A DNA stretch of 50,343 bases from Escherichia phage vB_Eco_mar001J1. The notes below the pieces were generated by a model. That model was not told the origin of the DNA and did no database searches. It was given only the letters and a program-made list of their open reading frames with translations. The stretch lies in the sequence record NC_048204.1; one strand, written 5' to 3'. Position numbers and translations under genes: made by a program. Position 1 is the first letter of the stretch. Each line of letters opens with the position of its first letter. Positions 1-50,343 of the stretch are shown in pieces.

Positions 1-127
1 AAAATTATGTCCAGCAAGTTTTTAGTAGTTCGCGTATATAATCATGACAACGAATCTTCTTCTGAAATCCCGACAATTTATGACAGGGATTTTGGATGGA
101 GTGAGCAATCGGCTGTTGAAAATGAGC
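1..127. repeat. Terminal direct duplication: 1-127 is identical to 50217-50343 (circular permutation or assembly overlap)
   Basis: Exact match of window start and end read directly from the sequence. Confidence 0.9.
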
Positions 128-3594: not shown

Positions 3595-3626
3595 TTTTAT
3601 TTCCTCATGTTTGCTTCGTTGAAATA

Positions 3627-7186: not shown

Positions 7187-7230
7187 ATAATAGACTCATT
7201 ACAATAAACTGTTTTAACAAAAAATGCTAT
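7187..7230 (-). promoter_or_regulatory. Cassette promoter candidate upstream of helicase gene (20-mer + 18 bp + TATTAT)
   Basis: ATAGCATTTTTTGTTAAAAC on coding strand, 22 bp from TTGTTA to TATTAT; divergent region also holds a plus-strand TATAAT at 7186-7191. Confidence 0.5.
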
Positions 7231-7241
7231 GAGGTGACTAG

Positions 7242-7718
7242 ATGAAAGATGCACGAATTGCAGTGTCTACGGGTGAGATCGACAAGCGCACTATTAACGG
7301 TAACAACGGAACGCGACGAGGTAAAGACAAAAAGCCACGAAAACACCGAACCGGATTTCTTATCCTGCGAGATGAGGTAAAAGCAAGCCTGAAATCTCGC
7401 CTTGACATTCTGATCGAGTATTACGGCGGTGTTCCTGCTATGGCTCGACGTCTACGCGTATCTCAGCAAGTCGTTAACCAGTGGCGAAAGCGTGGCATGA
7501 TTTCAGCCGCTGGAGCACAAAAGGTGCATAACGACTACAAATATAATGGGTGCAAAGGATACCGCGCATCATTTTGTCGTCCAGATCTGCGGTTTGATTC
7601 TAACGGCAAGCCTCTTACTACCCGTTGCGACAAATACGAAATGTTGCGCGTAGTCAAAAATTCAGACTACGAACCAGGCGGACGATTCTACAAAGGTGAT
7701 AACAGCACGAATAGCTAA
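7242..7718 (+). CDS. Cro/YdaS-family helix-turn-helix DNA-binding protein
   Basis: YGGVPAMARRLRVSQQVVNQWRKRGMIS segment; GAGGTGA RBS. Confidence 0.55.
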   Translation: MKDARIAVSTGEIDKRTINGNNGTRRGKDKKPRKHRTGFLILRDEVKASLKSRLDILIEYYGGVPAMARRLRVSQQVVNQWRKRGMISAAGAQKVHNDYKYNGCKGYRASFCRPDLRFDSNGKPLTTRCDKYEMLRVVKNSDYEPGGRFYKGDNSTNS

Positions 7719-8744: not shown

Positions 8745-8777
8745 GCATTTGAAAATGCTATTATCTGCATTGTCATT

Positions 8778-8792
8778 AGCAAAAAGTGCTAT
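8778..8792 (+). repeat. Partial inverted copy of cassette 20-mer (AGCAAAAAGTGCTAT) directly 5' of tail-fibre RBS
   Basis: Reverse complement of the ATAGCACTTTTTG core, abutting AGGAGG. Confidence 0.45.
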
Positions 8793-25470: not shown

Positions 25471-25490
25471 ATAGCACTTTTTGTTAAAAG
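25471..25490 (+). repeat. Inverted cassette 20-mer immediately 5' of the chaperone G RBS
   Basis: ATAGCACTTTTTGTTAAAAG reads on plus strand while flanking genes are on minus; TAGATT lies 22 bp downstream on plus. Confidence 0.5.
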
Positions 25491-25532
25491 TGGAATTGAT
25501 TTATTTGATAGATTGATTTTACAGGAATGAAA

Positions 25533-25557
25533 AAAGGGGCGCAACGCCCCTTGTTTT
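25533..25557. terminator. Bidirectional stem-loop after the tail tube gene
   Basis: GGGGCGC a ACGCCCC flanked by A-run and T-run. Confidence 0.65.
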
Positions 25558-29219: not shown

Positions 29220-29247
29220 ATGATAGCACTTTTTGTTAAAGCGTCAA
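29220..29247 (-). promoter_or_regulatory. Sigma70-type promoter for capsid gene (TTGACG, 16-bp spacer, extended -10 TGcTATCAT)
   Basis: The spacer and extended -10 are the inverted cassette 20-mer (plus 29223-29241); 5'-UTR hairpin GGCCGTTAAATGTAACGGCC follows. Confidence 0.55.
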
Positions 29248-34007: not shown

Positions 34008-34037
34008 CATAATAAAAAGGCTGGAAAAATCCAGCCT
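34008..34037 (-). terminator. Stem-loop between large terminase and portal genes
   Basis: AAGGCTGGA...TCCAGCCTT followed by TTTTATT. Confidence 0.55.
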
Positions 34038-34047
34038 TGATTATATA

Positions 34048-34069
34048 ACTTTTTAGCAATTAGTGCTAT
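34048..34069 (-). repeat. Degenerate cassette copy (TAAATAGCACTAATTGCTAAAAAG) with adjacent TATAAT
   Basis: Overlaps the large terminase stop codon; spacing unlike the canonical cassette. Confidence 0.35.
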
Positions 34070-38804: not shown

Positions 38805-38836
38805 TGCGCTTTCCTCTGTTTCGCTTCAATAAGGGC

Positions 38837-41602: not shown

Positions 41603-41633
41603 AATTTAATCCTCGTTTGTTGTTGATGGGCTT

Positions 41634-42064: not shown

Positions 42065-42096
42065 TTTTGTTTCCTCAATCTCGTTTCGATGAGGCT

Positions 42097-42140
42097 ATTA
42101 TGCCAGGCTTTGCGCCTGGCGTTTTAACAAAAAGTGCTAT
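42097..42140 (-). promoter_or_regulatory. Cassette promoter candidate (20-mer, hairpin CCAGGCGCAAAGCCTGG, CATAAT, TCGAAACGA leader)
   Basis: Consensus copy; overlaps stop of lipoprotein gene. Confidence 0.55.
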
Positions 42141-43200: not shown

Positions 43201-43408
43201 TTTCTTTGTTTTTTCCGTTTTCGCTACACCGGAAAACCGCGCGGAAACACGCCGCCTGAAATCGGTAACAGGGGTGAACAAAAGACAACAACCACTGACA
43301 GCCAGGCGGAAAAGTGAGGCAAGAGGGGAAGGTTTCACTATCTCCCCTGCAACCAATGATTAAGCGTGATTACTTTTCTCATCAAATTTGCAAAGGCAAT
43401 CATCATTT

Positions 43409-43448
43409 TGACGTGATTTGATTACGAATGATTACTTCTGATTATTTC
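43409..43448. repeat. Tandem 10-bp direct repeats TGATTAC(N3), iteron-like
   Basis: TGATTACGAA, TGATTACTTC, TGATTATTTC in register, partial copy upstream and another GTGATTAC at 43365. Confidence 0.5.
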
Positions 43449-43475
43449 GATCACAATCCTGGCGCTAACCGTCAA

Positions 43476-43519
43476 ATAGCACTTTTTGTTAAAACTCAGG
43501 CCGTCTGATCGGGTACATT
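43476..43519 (+). promoter_or_regulatory. Cassette promoter candidate for the rightward early operon (20-mer, TACATT, TCGAAACGAA leader)
   Basis: 22 bp between TTGTTA and TACATT. Confidence 0.55.
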
Positions 43520-43553
43520 ACACACATCGAAACGAACCGCTCAGGAGATAGCA

Positions 43554-43826
43554 ATGAACATCAGCAAAACCACTTTCAACTTCTCTAAGCGTCACGGTCT
43601 GGATCTGACTGTTGAAGATTTTGGCGATGTTCTGCAACTCTGCATTTGGGAAGCAGATAACGATTGCGAGTGGCTTTGCTCTTATCGTATCAACTACGAT
43701 TGCTTGACCTGGCACGGCAATATCTATCTGCCGCAAGAAGTGAAGGAAGAATTGCCAGCGACTATCAACAACGAGGTTTTCTTGCGTCAGGTGCTGAAAT
43801 TTATCAGTGAGGAGATCAAGAAGTAA
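43554..43826 (+). CDS. Hypothetical protein (90 aa)
   Basis: GGAG RBS. Confidence 0.55.
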   Translation: MNISKTTFNFSKRHGLDLTVEDFGDVLQLCIWEADNDCEWLCSYRINYDCLTWHGNIYLPQEVKEELPATINNEVFLRQVLKFISEEIKK

Positions 43827-44779: not shown

Positions 44780-44823
44780 ATAGCACTTTTTGTTAAAAAC
44801 GATGCGCTGCTGATTGTTATAGT
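44780..44823 (+). promoter_or_regulatory. Cassette promoter candidate (20-mer + TGtTATAGT)
   Basis: 22-bp spacing; the TATAGT has an upstream TG (extended -10). Confidence 0.5.
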
Positions 44824-44854
44824 TATCGCATCTACAACAAACGAGTATTTAAAA

Positions 44855-46992: not shown

Positions 46993-47032
46993 CACTTTTT
47001 GTTAAAAGCCAGGTGTAAAAACCTGGCATAAT
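46989..47032 (+). promoter_or_regulatory. Cassette promoter candidate (20-mer, hairpin CCAGGTGTAAAAACCTGG, CATAAT, CCGAAACGAAAGGAG leader)
   Basis: 22-bp spacing; overlaps TAG stop of the methyltransferase-like gene. Confidence 0.55.
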
Positions 47033-47063
47033 CACTTCACCGAAACGAAAGGAGAAATAAACG

Positions 47064-50025: not shown

Positions 50026-50146
50026 GGATTTTATTCATGCTTTACTTACGCTACTTTATTCAGATATGCGCGCTTTTAGCACCACTGAACATGTTTTATG
50101 CAATGATGATGGTGTATTACTGGTTACGGTAAAGCGTATGGAATAG
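49952..50146 (+). CDS. Hypothetical protein (64 aa) overlapping the preceding gene in another frame
   Basis: TAG stop is embedded in the cassette 20-mer like other cassette-preceding genes. Confidence 0.4.
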   Translation: MMNCSRQKLIDKFLKHCAVNSISHEDFIHALLTLLYSDMRAFSTTEHVLCNDDGVLLVTVKRME

Positions 50147-50186
50147 CATTTTTTGTTAAAACGCCCGGCCTAGTGTCGGGTATATT
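50143..50186 (+). promoter_or_regulatory. Cassette promoter candidate (20-mer, hairpin GCCCGGCCTAGTGTCGGG, TATATT, TCGAAACGAAAC leader)
   Basis: Drives the gene at 7..231 across the circular junction; near-identical to the inverted copy at 3627-3670. Confidence 0.55.
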
Positions 50187-50343
50187 TGTTTCATCGAAAC
50201 GAAACAACCAAAAGGTAAAATTATGTCCAGCAAGTTTTTAGTAGTTCGCGTATATAATCATGACAACGAATCTTCTTCTGAAATCCCGACAATTTATGAC
50301 AGGGATTTTGGATGGAGTGAGCAATCGGCTGTTGAAAATGAGC

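What the first reader, a model, noticed from the sequence alone, without database searches (positions are those of the whole stretch)
43519..43553. Conserved leader element (C)A-TCGAAACGA(A/G) just downstream of the cassette hexamer
After the TAnnnT hexamer, several copies continue with about 7 nt ending in CA and then TCGAAACGAA or a close variant before the Shine-Dalgarno: 43527-43536 (TCGAAACGAA), 47041-47050 (CGAAACGAAA), 50193-50204 (TCGAAACGAAAC), reverse strand near 42080-42090 (TCGAAACGAG), 38810-38820 (GCGAAACAGAGG) and 3605-3620 (ACGAAGCAAAC). This probably marks the transcript 5' end region and could be an initial-transcribed-sequence signal, a translational enhancer or an RNA-processing site shared by early mRNAs.
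Basis: seen in the sequence. Interest (0 to 1): 0.45.

Follow-up and report, generated by a model that had tools for sequence, protein, structure and literature searches.

The report
Conserved transcript-start motif of phage promoters
The short sequence CA-TCGAAACGA is real and strongly conserved: it sits exactly where transcription should begin in a repeated promoter cassette of this T1-like phage, and the same start sequence follows early promoters of unrelated phages (RB49-like, KVP40, phi80), so it is most likely an optimised first stretch of early transcripts rather than a gene-specific signal.

Summary
The window is the genome of the T1-like coliphage vB_Eco_mar001J1. It carries 16 copies of the known T1/TLS 21-nt repeat, whose function is unknown.

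**Cassette layout.** In most copies the repeat is followed by:
- a 19-nt spacer, often a GC-rich dyad;
- a -10-like hexamer with G at -14;
- six bases ending in C, then A.

**The motif here.** CATCGAAACGA occurs exactly three times (0.02 expected), plus one 1-mismatch copy. All four lie in the same register, with A seven bases after the hexamer.

**Conservation.**
- In nine diverged orthologues of the focal cassette these 11 bases are invariant, while the spacer, hexamer and later leader vary.
- Of 201 unique T1-like cassettes, 33 carry ATCGAAACGA exactly at +1. None carries it exactly in any other register, and about 39 different genes follow it.
- Its distance to the start codon varies (+22 to +34).
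- The same start follows canonical sigma-70 promoters in RB49-type PeSL cassettes, KVP40 and phi80 pL. It partly matches the mapped T7 A1 and A3 starts.

**Reading.** It is the initial transcribed sequence and 5' end of early transcripts, probably favouring promoter escape and an open, U-poor leader. No 5'-end mapping exists, so the mechanism is inferred. I rate it a new variant of a known kind, of moderate interest.

The parts
43474..43494 (+). 21-nt T1/TLS-type intergenic repeat (aaATAGCACTTTTTGTTAAAA) of the focal cassette, at about -52 to -32
   Evidence: 16 copies of the 19-mer with up to 3 mismatches, against 0.01 expected. It matches the repeat aaATAGCACnnnTTGnTAAAA described in TLS, whose function is unknown.
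43495..43513 (+). 19-nt variable spacer with a weak dyad (CCG..CGG); G at -14 (43512)
   Evidence: The spacer length is fixed in nearly all copies. Stems of 6 bp or more are found between -32 and +1 in 46% of cassettes, against 4.7% of shuffles. G at -14 occurs in 85% of 191 cassettes.
43514..43519 (+). -10-like hexamer TACATT
   Evidence: Profile values across the hexamer are T 70%, T 79%, A 66% and A 57% at the four unconstrained positions. A at -11 and T at -7 were required by the selection filter, which 202 of 277 repeat instances passed. The hexamer varies among orthologues (TACATT, CATAAT, TATAGT) but stays in place.
43520..43525 (+). Discriminator ACACAC, ending in C at -1
   Evidence: C at -1 in 72% of cassettes; the region is C-rich from -4 to -1. 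In many cassettes it forms the 3' arm of a dyad that encloses the -10 hexamer.
43526..43537 (+). Leader motif ATCGAAACGAAC; A at 43526 is the predicted transcription start (+1)
   Evidence: CATCGAAACGA is invariant in 9 orthologues. It occurs exactly 3 times in the window, against 0.02 expected. ATCGAAACGA sits exactly at +1 in 33 of 201 unique cassettes and in no other register.
43543..43556 (+). Shine-Dalgarno AGGAG (43543-43547) and ATG (43554) of gp39 (CDS 43554-43826)
   Evidence: Sequence, annotation of NC_048206 and the orthologue alignment.
42079..42091 (-). Second exact copy: C-ATCGAAACGAGA after CATAAT (42102-42097); upstream of gp36 (DUF7421)
   Evidence: Pfam match of gp36.
50192..50204 (+). 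Third exact copy: C-ATCGAAACGAAA after TATATT (50181-50186); upstream of gp54, whose gene starts at 50223 and is duplicated at 7-231
   Evidence: Orthologues about 74% identical overall keep this block unchanged. The terminal overlap is shown.
47038..47050 (+). One-mismatch copy: C-ACCGAAACGAAA after CATAAT (47027-47032); upstream of gp49
   Evidence: In related phages the gene upstream of this cassette is orthologous and the genes downstream differ, yet the leader is kept.
38819..38831 (-). Diverged leader class ATTGAAGCGAAA after TAAAGT (38842-38837)
   Evidence: The class ATTGAAGCAA..CAACCAATCAGAGG recurs in many T1-like contigs.
3609..3621 (-). Diverged leader AACGAAGCAAAC after CATAAT (3632-3627)
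   Evidence: Its spacer is identical to that of the 50143 copy, but its leader differs.
41616..41628 (-). Variant leader ATCAACAACAAA(CGAGG) after TATAGT (41639-41634)
44829..44841 (+). Variant leader ATCTACAACAAA(CGAG) after TATAGT (44818-44823)

Best explanation
CATCGAAACGA(A/G)A is the start-site dinucleotide (C at -1, A at +1) plus the initial transcribed sequence of a repeated early-promoter cassette. It therefore forms the extreme 5' end of the transcripts those promoters make.

**Proposed sequence of events.**
1. Host sigma-70 RNA polymerase binds an extended -10-type promoter: G at -14, often T at -15, and a TAnnnT-like hexamer.
2. The conserved 21-mer at -52 to -32 assists in place of a normally spaced -35 element. 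How it assists is unknown.
3. Transcription starts at the A seven bases after the hexamer.
4. The polymerase first makes pppAUCGAAACGAAAC. This stretch is purine-rich and almost U-free, and it has no pyrimidine-G step at +5 to +7.

**Inferred function.**
- It favours productive promoter escape from very strong phage promoters.
- It leaves a short (21-33 nt), unstructured, U-poor 5' leader. Good ribosome access is inferred from the low structure; resistance to nucleases is a guess from memory of RNase E and RppH preferences.

**Context.** The element belongs to the cassette, not to the gene that follows. It is shared with PeSL cassettes of RB49-like phages and with other early phage promoters.

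**Shown and inferred.** Shown: the anatomy, the fixed register, the conservation and the cross-family occurrence. Inferred: the start site in this phage and the escape and stability mechanism.
For: **Register and profile.**
- In 191 unique T1-like cassettes: G at -14 85%, C at -1 72%, A at +1 84%.
- The +2 to +12 consensus is TCGAAACGAAA, and T is at most 10% at nearly every position from +4 to +17.
- Exact ATCGAAACGA sits at +1 in 33 of 201 unique cassettes, and 52 of 201 match with up to one mismatch.
- There are zero exact matches in registers -8 to +11. About 39 different downstream N-termini follow the motif.

**Purifying selection.**
- Eleven bases are invariant in 9 orthologues from the genera Warwickvirus, Hanrivervirus and Tlsvirus and from Enterobacter and Klebsiella phages.
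- In the same alignment the spacer, hexamer, discriminator and the leader beyond +11 all vary.

**It belongs to the cassette.** At the gp49 cassette the upstream gene is orthologous and the downstream genes differ, yet the leader is retained.

**Anchored to the promoter, not the ribosome site.** The start codon lies at +22 to +34 and the Shine-Dalgarno sequence at +9 to +22.

**The same start after canonical sigma-70 promoters.**
- Krischvirus PeSLs read TTGACA-17-CATAAT-acaccc-ATCGAAACGAGATACC.
- PeSLs have been shown experimentally to be very strong promoters (PMC2839356).
- The same start is found in KVP40 and in phi80 pL with its annotated -35 and -10 elements.
- Of 96 further IMG/VR sites found without using any -35 information, 60 have TTG at a 16-18 bp spacer, against 0-17 at shifted control positions.
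- A scan of bacterial genomes gave 27 hits where I estimate about one by chance, mostly Enterobacterales prophages.

**Mapped starts in T7.** The annotated starts are A1 CATCGAGAGGG and A3 CATGAAACGAC.

**Leader structure.** The leaders fold no better than shuffled sequences (z from -0.3 to +1.5).

**General principle.** Initial transcribed sequences can change promoter output more than 10-fold. Purine content correlates with productive yield. Pyrimidine-G steps near +5 to +7 slow escape, while GA and GG there favour it (PMC5961368).
Against: - No 5'-end mapping exists for this phage or for any Drexlerviridae phage in the searchable literature, so +1 is inferred.
- The T1-like cassette lacks a -35 element at 16-18 bp. 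Its TTGnTA lies 22 bp from the hexamer, and the simple sigma-70 scan does not detect it, so the promoter call rests on the -10, G at -14 and the CA start.
- In the focal copy, positions -15 and -14 are GG, not TG.
- The motif has CG steps at +3/+4 and +8/+9. These can slow escape in some promoter contexts.
- Other strong promoters lack it: the perfect-consensus promoter at 42920-42893 starts ACAGTCAACAAC, and T5 promoters lack it from memory.
- In some Krischvirus PeSLs the core is shifted by 2 nt (ATACCGAAACGA), so the register is not absolute.
- Cassettes are related by descent and recombination, so the counts are not independent events.
Confidence: 0.6

Rival explanations
1. Translational enhancer or standby site. 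The A-rich, U-poor, unstructured RNA upstream of the Shine-Dalgarno sequence mainly increases 30S ribosome binding to these very short leaders.
For: - The leaders are only 21-33 nt long, so the motif lies inside the region the ribosome contacts.
- Composition from +2 to +20 is A 45% and T 13%, against 27% and 25% in coding sequence.
- The leaders show no structure beyond shuffled controls.
- This role could coexist with a role in initiation.
Against: - The motif's distance to the Shine-Dalgarno sequence and AUG varies by 12-13 nt, while its distance to the -10 hexamer is fixed.
- The same 13 nt open the phi80-type pL transcript, where the annotated features that follow are nutL elements and no ribosome site lies close to the motif.
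- Strict invariance of 11 bases exceeds what a composition-only enhancer needs.
Confidence: 0.13
2. Recombination linker or hitch-hiking. The motif has no direct role in expression. It is kept as a short homology arm, together with the 21-mer, that lets promoter-plus-gene modules be exchanged within and between phages, as proposed for PeSLs. It is homogenised by gene conversion.
For: - Homology between related phages starts or stops at the cassette.
- gp39 is homologous to RB49 gp194, a PeSL-flanked orphan gene that carries the same leader.
- PeSL crossovers were mapped between the -10 and the ATG (PMC2839356).
- The phage encodes an Erf-like annealing protein and exonuclease VIII.
- T1-type cassettes also occur in T4-like Citrobacter phage CfP1.
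Against: - Ten to thirteen bases is very short for homologous exchange.
- Gene conversion should also homogenise the 19-nt spacer, which is instead highly variable between copies that share the leader.
- The fixed register to the -10 hexamer and the CA start are not required of a linker.
- The motif is present at phi80 pL and partly at T7 A1 and A3, which are not gene-shuffling cassettes.
Confidence: 0.15
3. Operator for a trans-acting factor. A phage or host protein binds DNA or RNA at +1 to +12, like a stoperator or roadblock, or like a translational repressor. It switches the whole set of small early genes off or on together.
For: - The conservation is sequence-specific, and the motif contains a tandem pentamer (CGAAA repeated twice or three times).
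- The position is ideal for blocking initiation or escape.
- The phage encodes a weak Cro/YdaS-like helix-turn-helix protein, gp66, next to a cassette.
- The motif is confined to a subset of cassettes, those before small genes of unknown function.
- The TLS authors suggested stoperator-like roles for the neighbouring 21-mer.
Against: - The same motif occurs in phages with unrelated regulators: Krischvirus, KVP40, and phi80, where the CI operators lie upstream of +1. A common factor would therefore have to come from the host.
- I could match no known host factor site. The motif resembles only a half-site of LacI-family operators (from memory).
- No binding data exist.
Confidence: 0.08
4. RNA-processing site. 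Transcripts reading through from upstream are cut just 3' of the GC-rich hairpin, producing the same AUCGAAACGA 5' end.
For: - In 65 of 127 cassettes with a stem of 5 bp or more, the 3' arm ends exactly at -1 or +1.
- A read-through version of the 42122 cassette folds strongly (z = -4.2).
Against: - The other large class of hairpins ends at -12 or -13, and some cassettes, including the focal one, have only a weak dyad. The motif keeps its register to the hexamer in all of them.
- The stems are 5-8 bp, too short for RNase III.
- The motif is U-poor, which does not suit RNase E (from memory).
- The same start follows promoters with no preceding hairpin, such as phi80 pL and T7 A1.
Confidence: 0.04

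Closest known systems
PeSL (promoter-early stem-loop) cassettes of RB49/phi1-type T4-like phages (Arbiol et al. 2010, PMC2839356)
   Same: - The layout matches: an upstream stop codon in an AT-rich stretch, a -10 hexamer (C/TATAAT), and a GC-rich GGGG...CCCC stem-loop.
- The stem-loop lies either between the upstream element and the -10 or around the -10.
- A short leader, a Shine-Dalgarno sequence and an ATG follow, usually before small orphan genes. Homology between genomes breaks at the cassette.
- Sf20 and Whisky PeSLs carry the identical leader ATCGAAACGAGATACC, and one precedes a homologue of this phage's gp39.
   Different: - PeSLs have a canonical TTGACA at 17 bp.
- The T1-like cassette instead has the 21-mer ATAGCACnnnTTGnTAAAA, with its TTG 22 bp from the hexamer, plus G at -14.
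- The PeSL paper does not single out a conserved leader: the word 'leader' does not occur in its main text.
- Promoter and terminator activity were tested for PeSLs, not for T1-like cassettes.
The 21-nt intergenic direct repeat of TLS, T1, Rtp and Rogue1 (PMC11447400)
   Same: It is the same repeat, aaATAGCACnnnTTGnTAAAA. It is oriented with transcription, lies about 76 nt before start codons, and comes in TTT and GAA subclasses.
   Different: That paper lists the repeat's function as an open question and suggests stoperators, enhancer sites or UP elements. The passages retrieved from it do not mention the fixed 19-nt spacer, the -10 hexamer, G at -14, the CA start or the conserved leader.
Initial transcribed sequences of strong phage early promoters (T7 A1 and A3; T5 N25 and its downstream region, Kammerer et al. 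1986; Hsu et al. 2006; Heyduk and Heyduk 2018, PMC5961368)
   Same: - A defined sequence from +1 to about +12 accompanies very strong sigma-70 promoters.
- T7 A1 starts CATCGAGAGGG and T7 A3 starts CATGAAACGAC at their annotated start sites.
- These starts are purine-rich and U-poor, and they lack pyrimidine-G steps at +5 to +7. That is the property linked to good escape.
   Different: - The T7 sequences match only in part. T5 N25 starts ATAAATTTGA (from memory).
- In the searchable literature I found no report of a start motif shared across phage families.
- The effect of this particular sequence on escape is untested.
phi80-type lambdoid pL leader
   Same: The transcript predicted from the annotated pL -35 and -10 elements begins ATCGAAACGAAACATCGAC, in the same register of six bases after the hexamer. 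It is found in many Enterobacter, Citrobacter, Rahnella and Tatumella prophages that have different operator and promoter sequences.
   Different: This is a temperate phage with a CI-controlled promoter. The leader continues into nutL (boxA lies 58 nt downstream) rather than into a ribosome-binding site. Conservation there cannot be separated from conservation of the whole leader.
Mycobacteriophage L5 stoperators (Brown et al. 1997), considered because the TLS authors raised them
   Same: Many short asymmetric sites are oriented with transcription and lie between or within early genes.
   Different: Stoperators are defined by binding of the phage repressor and by blocking elongation. No cognate binding protein is known here. 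The motif is also shared with phages that have unrelated regulators.

Membership tests
Sigma-70 promoter of the extended -10 type | -10 hexamer with A at position 2 and T at position 6 | tested here: met
   TACATT at 43514-43519. 202 of 277 repeat instances have such a hexamer exactly 19 nt after the repeat. The unconstrained hexamer positions are also conserved (T 70%, T 79%, A 66%, A 57%).
Sigma-70 promoter of the extended -10 type | TG at -15/-14 | tested here: inconclusive
   G at -14 in 85% and T at -15 in 47% of 191 cassettes. The focal copy has GG, while the copies at 42122, 46989 and 44780 have TG.
Canonical sigma-70 promoter | -35 hexamer 16-18 bp upstream of the -10 | tested here: not met
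   TTGnTA lies 22 bp upstream. The consensus scan does not find the cassettes. The feature is met in the Krischvirus, KVP40 and phi80 promoters that carry the same leader.
Transcription start / initial transcribed sequence | Primary (triphosphate) 5' end at the A, 6-8 nt after the hexamer | not testable with these tools
   The sequence is consistent (C at -1 72%, A at +1 84%). Partly matching starts are annotated in T7 A1 and A3. No 5'-end maps were found for T1-like phages.
PeSL mobile promoter cassette | Stem-loop at variable positions within the promoter (between the upstream element and the -10, or overlapping the -10) | tested here: met
   Stems of 6 bp or more occur in 46% of cassettes against 4.7% of shuffles. 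The 3' arms end at -12/-13 or at -1/+1. PeSL definition.
PeSL mobile promoter cassette | Consensus sigma-70 -35 and -10 boxes | tested here: not met
   The -10 box is present, but the -35 box is replaced by the 21-mer at a non-canonical distance. This makes it PeSL-like, not a PeSL in the strict sense.
PeSL mobile promoter cassette | Sits before small orphan genes and marks homology breakpoints between related genomes | tested here: met
   Motif-bearing cassettes precede gp36, gp39, gp49 and gp54 (61-90 aa). Homology begins at the 21-mer in diverged orthologues and ends after the leader at the gp49 cassette.
PeSL mobile promoter cassette | Demonstrated promoter and attenuator activity; formation of mini-circles | not testable with these tools
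   Shown only for RB49 and phi1.
Translational enhancer | Fixed position relative to the Shine-Dalgarno sequence and start codon | tested here: not met
   The start codon lies at +22 to +34 and the Shine-Dalgarno sequence at +9 to +22. In phi80 pL the features that follow the motif are nutL elements, not a nearby ribosome site.
Described RNA family (Rfam) | Match at or above the gathering score | tested here: not met
   No Rfam match in the window or in the phi80-type leader loci.
Stoperator or operator | Specific binding by a phage repressor or regulator | not testable with these tools
   Only a weak Cro/YdaS-like helix-turn-helix match in gp66, below the Pfam cut-off. The motif is shared with phages that have unrelated regulators.

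The most novel reading that the evidence does not exclude
AUCGAAACGA(A/G)A at the triphosphate end is a specific, portable 5'-terminal signal, read either by the host transcription machinery itself or by a host factor that senses 5' ends. Unrelated phages of Enterobacterales and Vibrio would have acquired it independently or horizontally. It would give their early transcripts a privileged status, such as near-quantitative promoter escape, exemption from 5'-end-dependent decay or non-canonical capping, or survival of phage-induced host shut-off. On this reading the T1-like 21-mer plus the motif define a distinct promoter class without a -35 element.
Probability: 0.15. Interest if true: 0.75.

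Novelty: new variant of a known kind. Interest (0 to 1): 0.5.

Why it matters
**The T1/TLS repeat becomes testable.** The 2024 TLS re-annotation names the function of the T1-like 21-nt repeats as an open question and found only three sigma-70-like promoters in that genome. Placing the repeat a fixed 19 nt upstream of a -10 hexamer with G at -14, a CA start and a conserved leader turns it into a specific hypothesis. The cassettes would be the missing early promoters, of an extended -10 type without a -35 element.

**A link between phage families.** The analysis connects Drexlerviridae cassettes to the PeSL cassettes of T4-like phages. The two share a leader and even a gene, which points to exchange of promoter-plus-gene modules across families.

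**Practical use.** The same 10-13 nt begin early transcripts in T1-like, RB49-like, RB43-like, KVP40 and phi80-like phages. This suggests a generally good start sequence for sigma-70 polymerase, useful for promoter engineering and for predicting start sites in phage genomes.

If the effect turns out to be nil, the motif is still a reliable marker of cassette boundaries.

Tried and rejected
- **Genome-wide over-representation.** With one mismatch the 9-mer shows none (15 found, 13.9 expected). Only the exact, register-specific count is significant.
- **Canonical sigma-70 and terminator scan.** It does not detect the cassettes, and overall counts are at or below shuffle levels.
- **Rfam.** There are no matches in the window or in phi80-type leaders.
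- **RNA structure of the leader.**
  - The UCG-AAA-CGA mini-stem is too weak, and the leaders fold no better than shuffles.
  - The motif is invariant, so covariation cannot be assessed.
  - Pairing of the 21-mer U-tract with the A-rich ribosome site in read-through RNA appeared in one copy (z = -4.2) but not in the focal one (z = 0).
- **The 21-mer as a sigma-54 site.** TGGCAC-N5-TTGC compared with TAGCAC-N3-TTGC: the spacing is 2 bp short and the GG is lost.
- **The 21-mer as an rrn or lambda boxA.** The GAA subclass breaks the match.
- **The 21-mer as a standard UP element.** The register is off by about 8-9 bp. All three 21-mer comparisons were made by eye against consensus sequences recalled from memory.
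- **The hairpin as an antisense terminator.** This works only for the class that abuts TAAAA.
- **Consensus pause (G at -10, pyrimidine at -1, G at +1) at +13/+14.** It is present in the focal copy but not in the copies at 42122 or 46989.
- **Host factor sites recalled from memory (RbsR, Cra, GalR, PurR).** The motif resembles only a half-site and has no palindromic partner.
- **NAD-capping consensus (from memory).** The pyrimidines at -1 and -2 argue against it; this was not pursued.
- **Pfam on the downstream proteins.** It was uninformative (DUF7421 only), and gp66 has only a sub-threshold Cro/YdaS match.
- **Literature.** I found no 5'-end maps for Drexlerviridae and no paper containing the motif in a promoter context.
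- **Complementarity to 16S rRNA.** I considered it but did not test it.
Full report
**What the window is.** A similarity search shows the window is the complete genome of Escherichia phage vB_Eco_mar001J1 (LR027388 / NC_048206). This is a T1-like siphovirus of the family Drexlerviridae, genus Warwickvirus. The window is rotated relative to the record and carries a 127-bp terminal overlap: bases 1-127 equal 50217-50343.

**The observation.**
- They are not isolated. They are the downstream end of a repeated cassette.
- The 19-mer ATAGCACTTTTTGTTAAAA occurs 16 times with up to 3 mismatches, against 0.01 expected.
- In most copies it is followed by a 19-nt variable spacer, a -10-like hexamer (CATAAT, TATAGT, TACATT, TATATT and others), six bases usually ending in C, and then A.
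- CATCGAAACGA is present exactly three times (42091-42081 minus strand, 43525-43535, 50192-50202), against 0.02 expected.
- A fourth copy has one mismatch (47038-47048). All four share the same register.
- With one mismatch allowed, the 9-mer is not enriched genome-wide. The signal is one of position.
- Other cassettes carry relatives: ATTGAAGCGAAA, AACGAAGCAAAC and ATC(A/T)ACAACAAACGAG.
- The cassettes before the Dam methylase gene and the two helicase genes carry unrelated leaders.

**What is already known about the cassette.**
- The 21-nt repeat aaATAGCACnnnTTGnTAAAA was described in phage TLS, with 18 intergenic copies. It is also said to occur in T1, Rtp and Rogue1.
- Its function is explicitly listed there as an unanswered question. 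Stoperators, enhancer sites and UP elements are offered as guesses.
- The same study found only three sigma-70-like promoters in TLS (PMC11447400).
- The passages retrieved from that paper mention neither the hexamer at a fixed distance nor the leader.

**Anatomy across many phages.** An IMG/VR scan for the repeat gave 120 loci.
- After removing duplicates, a profile was built from 191 T1-like cassettes that have a hexamer with A at position 2 and T at position 6.
- The profile shows G at -14 in 85%, T at -15 in 47%, a C-rich discriminator, C at -1 in 72% and A at +1 in 84%.
- The +2 to +12 consensus is TCGAAACGAAA, at 0.2-0.9 bit per position. T is at most 10% at nearly every position from +4 to +17.
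- In a slightly larger set of 201 cassettes, the exact 10-mer ATCGAAACGA lies at +1 in 33, and 52 match with up to one mismatch.
- There is no exact match in any register from -8 to +11. Only a weak echo appears at +5, which reflects the internal CGAAA repeat.
- About 39 different protein N-termini follow the motif.
- Inverted repeats between -32 and +1 are strongly enriched: stems of 6 bp or more occur in 46%, against 4.7% of shuffles.
- The 3' arms of these stems end either at -12/-13 or exactly at -1/+1.

**Conservation test.**
- Orthologues of the focal cassette were aligned from nine phages. They span Warwickvirus, Hanrivervirus and Tlsvirus, plus an Enterobacter phage and a Klebsiella phage.
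- C106-A116 of the first sequence, which is CATCGAAACGA, is invariant.
- The spacer, the hexamer (TACATT, CATAAT, TATAGT), the discriminator, the leader beyond +11 and much of the coding sequence all vary.
- The only other invariant blocks between the repeat and the gene are a few -10 and -14 positions, the Shine-Dalgarno core and the ATG.
- In the more distant phages, homology to this window begins at the 21-mer.
- At the gp54 cassette, orthologues about 74% identical overall keep the whole block from -10 to +11.
- At the gp49 cassette the upstream methyltransferase gene is orthologous and the downstream genes differ, yet CA(A/C/T)CGAAACGAA is retained.
- The motif therefore belongs to the cassette and not to the gene.

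**Anchoring.**
- Within motif-bearing cassettes, the start codon lies anywhere from +22 to +34 and the Shine-Dalgarno sequence from +9 to +22.
- The distance to the hexamer is constant.
- RNA beginning at the A is no more structured than shuffled sequence (z from -0.3 to +1.5).

**The same start in unrelated phages.**
- *Krischvirus.*
  - gp39, the gene after the focal cassette, has homologues in Krischvirus (RB49 gp194).
  - RB49-type phages are where PeSL cassettes were defined. A PeSL has an AT-rich region with the upstream stop codon, sigma-70 boxes and a GGGG...CCCC stem-loop.
  - The stem-loop lies between the boxes or over the -10. A Shine-Dalgarno sequence and an ATG follow.
  - PeSLs were shown to be very strong promoters and recombination sites (PMC2839356).
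  - In phages Whisky and Sf20 the homologous gene is preceded by TTGACA-17 bp-CATAAT-acac(a/c)c-ATCGAAACGAGATACC.
  - In an 18-kb stretch of Sf20, three of about nine intergenic PeSL promoters have the exact motif at +1. Others read ATA(C/A)CGAAACGAA.
- *Broader IMG/VR scan.*
  - A scan for TAnnnT-N5-CATCGAAACGA used no -35 information.
  - Of its 96 unique new sites, 60 have TTG at a 16-18 bp spacer (46 at 17 bp), against 0-17 at shifted control positions.
- *Identified examples.*
  - Vibrio phage KVP40.
  - The T4-like Citrobacter phage CfP1, which also holds a T1-type 19-mer cassette.
  - A large family of phi80-like lambdoid phages.
- *phi80 pL.* The annotated -35 and -10 elements are followed by tactcc-ATCGAAACGAAACATCGAC. 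nutL boxA lies 58 nt further on, and no ribosome site lies close to the motif.
- *Bacterial genomes.*
  - A scan with a 20-specified-base pattern gave 27 hits where I estimate about one by chance.
  - Most are prophages of Enterobacter, Citrobacter, Rahnella and Tatumella with different operator and promoter sequences but the same start.
- *T7.* The annotated start sites read CATCGAGAGGG (A1) and CATGAAACGAC (A3), which are partial matches.

**Interpretation.**
- The motif is best read as the start-site dinucleotide plus the initial transcribed sequence, and therefore the 5' end, of early-promoter cassettes.
- The T1-like version looks like an extended -10 promoter in which the 21-mer at -52 to -32 replaces a normally spaced -35 element.
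- That would explain why standard promoter searches fail on these genomes.
- Why this particular sequence is used is inferred, not shown.
- Published work shows that initial transcribed sequences can change promoter output more than 10-fold. Purine-rich ones give more productive transcripts.
- Pyrimidine-G steps near +5 to +7 slow escape, while GA and GG there favour it (PMC5961368).
- The motif is purine-rich and U-poor, with GA at +4/+5 and AAA at +5 to +7.
- It does, however, carry CG at +3/+4 and +8/+9.
- A second, compatible benefit is a short, open, U-poor leader.

**Rivals.**
- A pure translational enhancer is disfavoured by the variable distance to the ribosome site and by phi80 pL.
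- A recombination-linker or hitch-hiking role, as in the PeSL model, is supported by the mosaic joints and the cross-family gene sharing.
- That model does not explain why the spacer between two conserved blocks is free to vary. It also does not explain the register or the occurrence at pL and T7 promoters.
- An operator for a trans-acting factor would need a host factor common to Escherichia and Vibrio hosts, and I could identify none.
- A processing site is unlikely because the register holds whatever the position of the hairpin.

**Limits.**
- No 5'-end mapping for any T1-like phage was found. The motif string returns no relevant paper.
- Cassette counts are inflated by shared ancestry.
- The motif is not universal: the perfect-consensus promoter at 42920-42893 starts ACAGTCAACAAC.
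- The role of the 21-mer remains unknown.

**Verdict.**
- It is a new variant of a known kind. It is a PeSL-like early-promoter cassette with an unusual upstream element.
- It shares with other phage families a start motif that I did not find described in the searchable literature.
- Interest is moderate (0.5).

Noticed in passing
window 1-127 and 50217-50343: The two ends of the window are an identical 127-bp direct repeat. This is most likely an assembly overlap, which makes the unit genome 50,216 bp. The cassette at 50143 therefore drives the gene seen complete at 7-231.
   Followed up: yes
window 25471-25556 (+), 29223-29241 (+), 8774-8792 (-): Three cassette copies point against the surrounding structural genes. 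The copy at 25471 keeps a hexamer (TAGATT, 25509-25514) and an A at 25521. It runs straight into a bidirectional GC-rich terminator, so it could make an antisense RNA of about 35-40 nt between the major tail protein gene and the chaperone gene. An orthologue in IMG/VR locus L016 keeps the same layout.
   Followed up: partly
window 42920-42893 (-): A perfect-consensus sigma-70 promoter, TTGACA-16 bp-TATAAT, faces leftward towards gp38 in the large divergent intergenic region. Its start, ACAGTCAACAAC, is A/C-rich but is not the motif.
   Followed up: partly
window 43360-43470: A cluster of GATTAC-like short repeats lies just upstream of the focal cassette. Hanrivervirus orthologues have TTATTCC/GGAATAA repeats at the same place instead. 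These could be iteron-like or regulator-binding sites in the roughly 690-bp divergent early region, which corresponds to the junction of the T1 genome ends.
   Followed up: no
window 43554-43826 (gp39): This small protein of unknown function has nucleotide-level homologues in T4-like Krischvirus phages (RB49 gp194). It also has homologues in several 145-150 kb and 176 kb phage genomes, including phi92 and JK32. It looks like an orphan gene that travels between phage families.
   Followed up: partly
L229 (Citrobacter phage CfP1, T4-like) and L062 (174-kb contig): A T1-type 19-mer cassette, with the 19-nt spacer, a hexamer and ATCGAAAC..., occurs in large T4-like genomes. Variants in CfP1 have the repeat moved further upstream and a canonical TTGC -35 element at 17 bp.
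   Followed up: partly
window 34008-34069 (-): A degenerate repeat copy (ATAGCACTAATTGCTAAAA) lies between the terminase and portal genes. TATAAT follows only 5 nt after the repeat, and a terminator-like hairpin follows that (aaggctggatttttccagccttttt). The arrangement differs from the standard cassette.
   Followed up: no
window 7212-7230 (-) and 7242-7718 (+): The only annotated 'transcriptional regulator' (gp66) has a sub-threshold Cro/YdaS-like helix-turn-helix match. Its gene starts 12 bp from a cassette that points the other way, towards the helicase gene, so the 21-mer lies in gp66's own upstream region.
   Followed up: no
L203, L245 and the prophage loci L246-L272: In phi80-type prophages the promoter and operator regions differ widely, as expected for different immunity types, and many contain direct repeats that flank the -35 element. 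Homology resumes almost exactly at +1.
   Followed up: no
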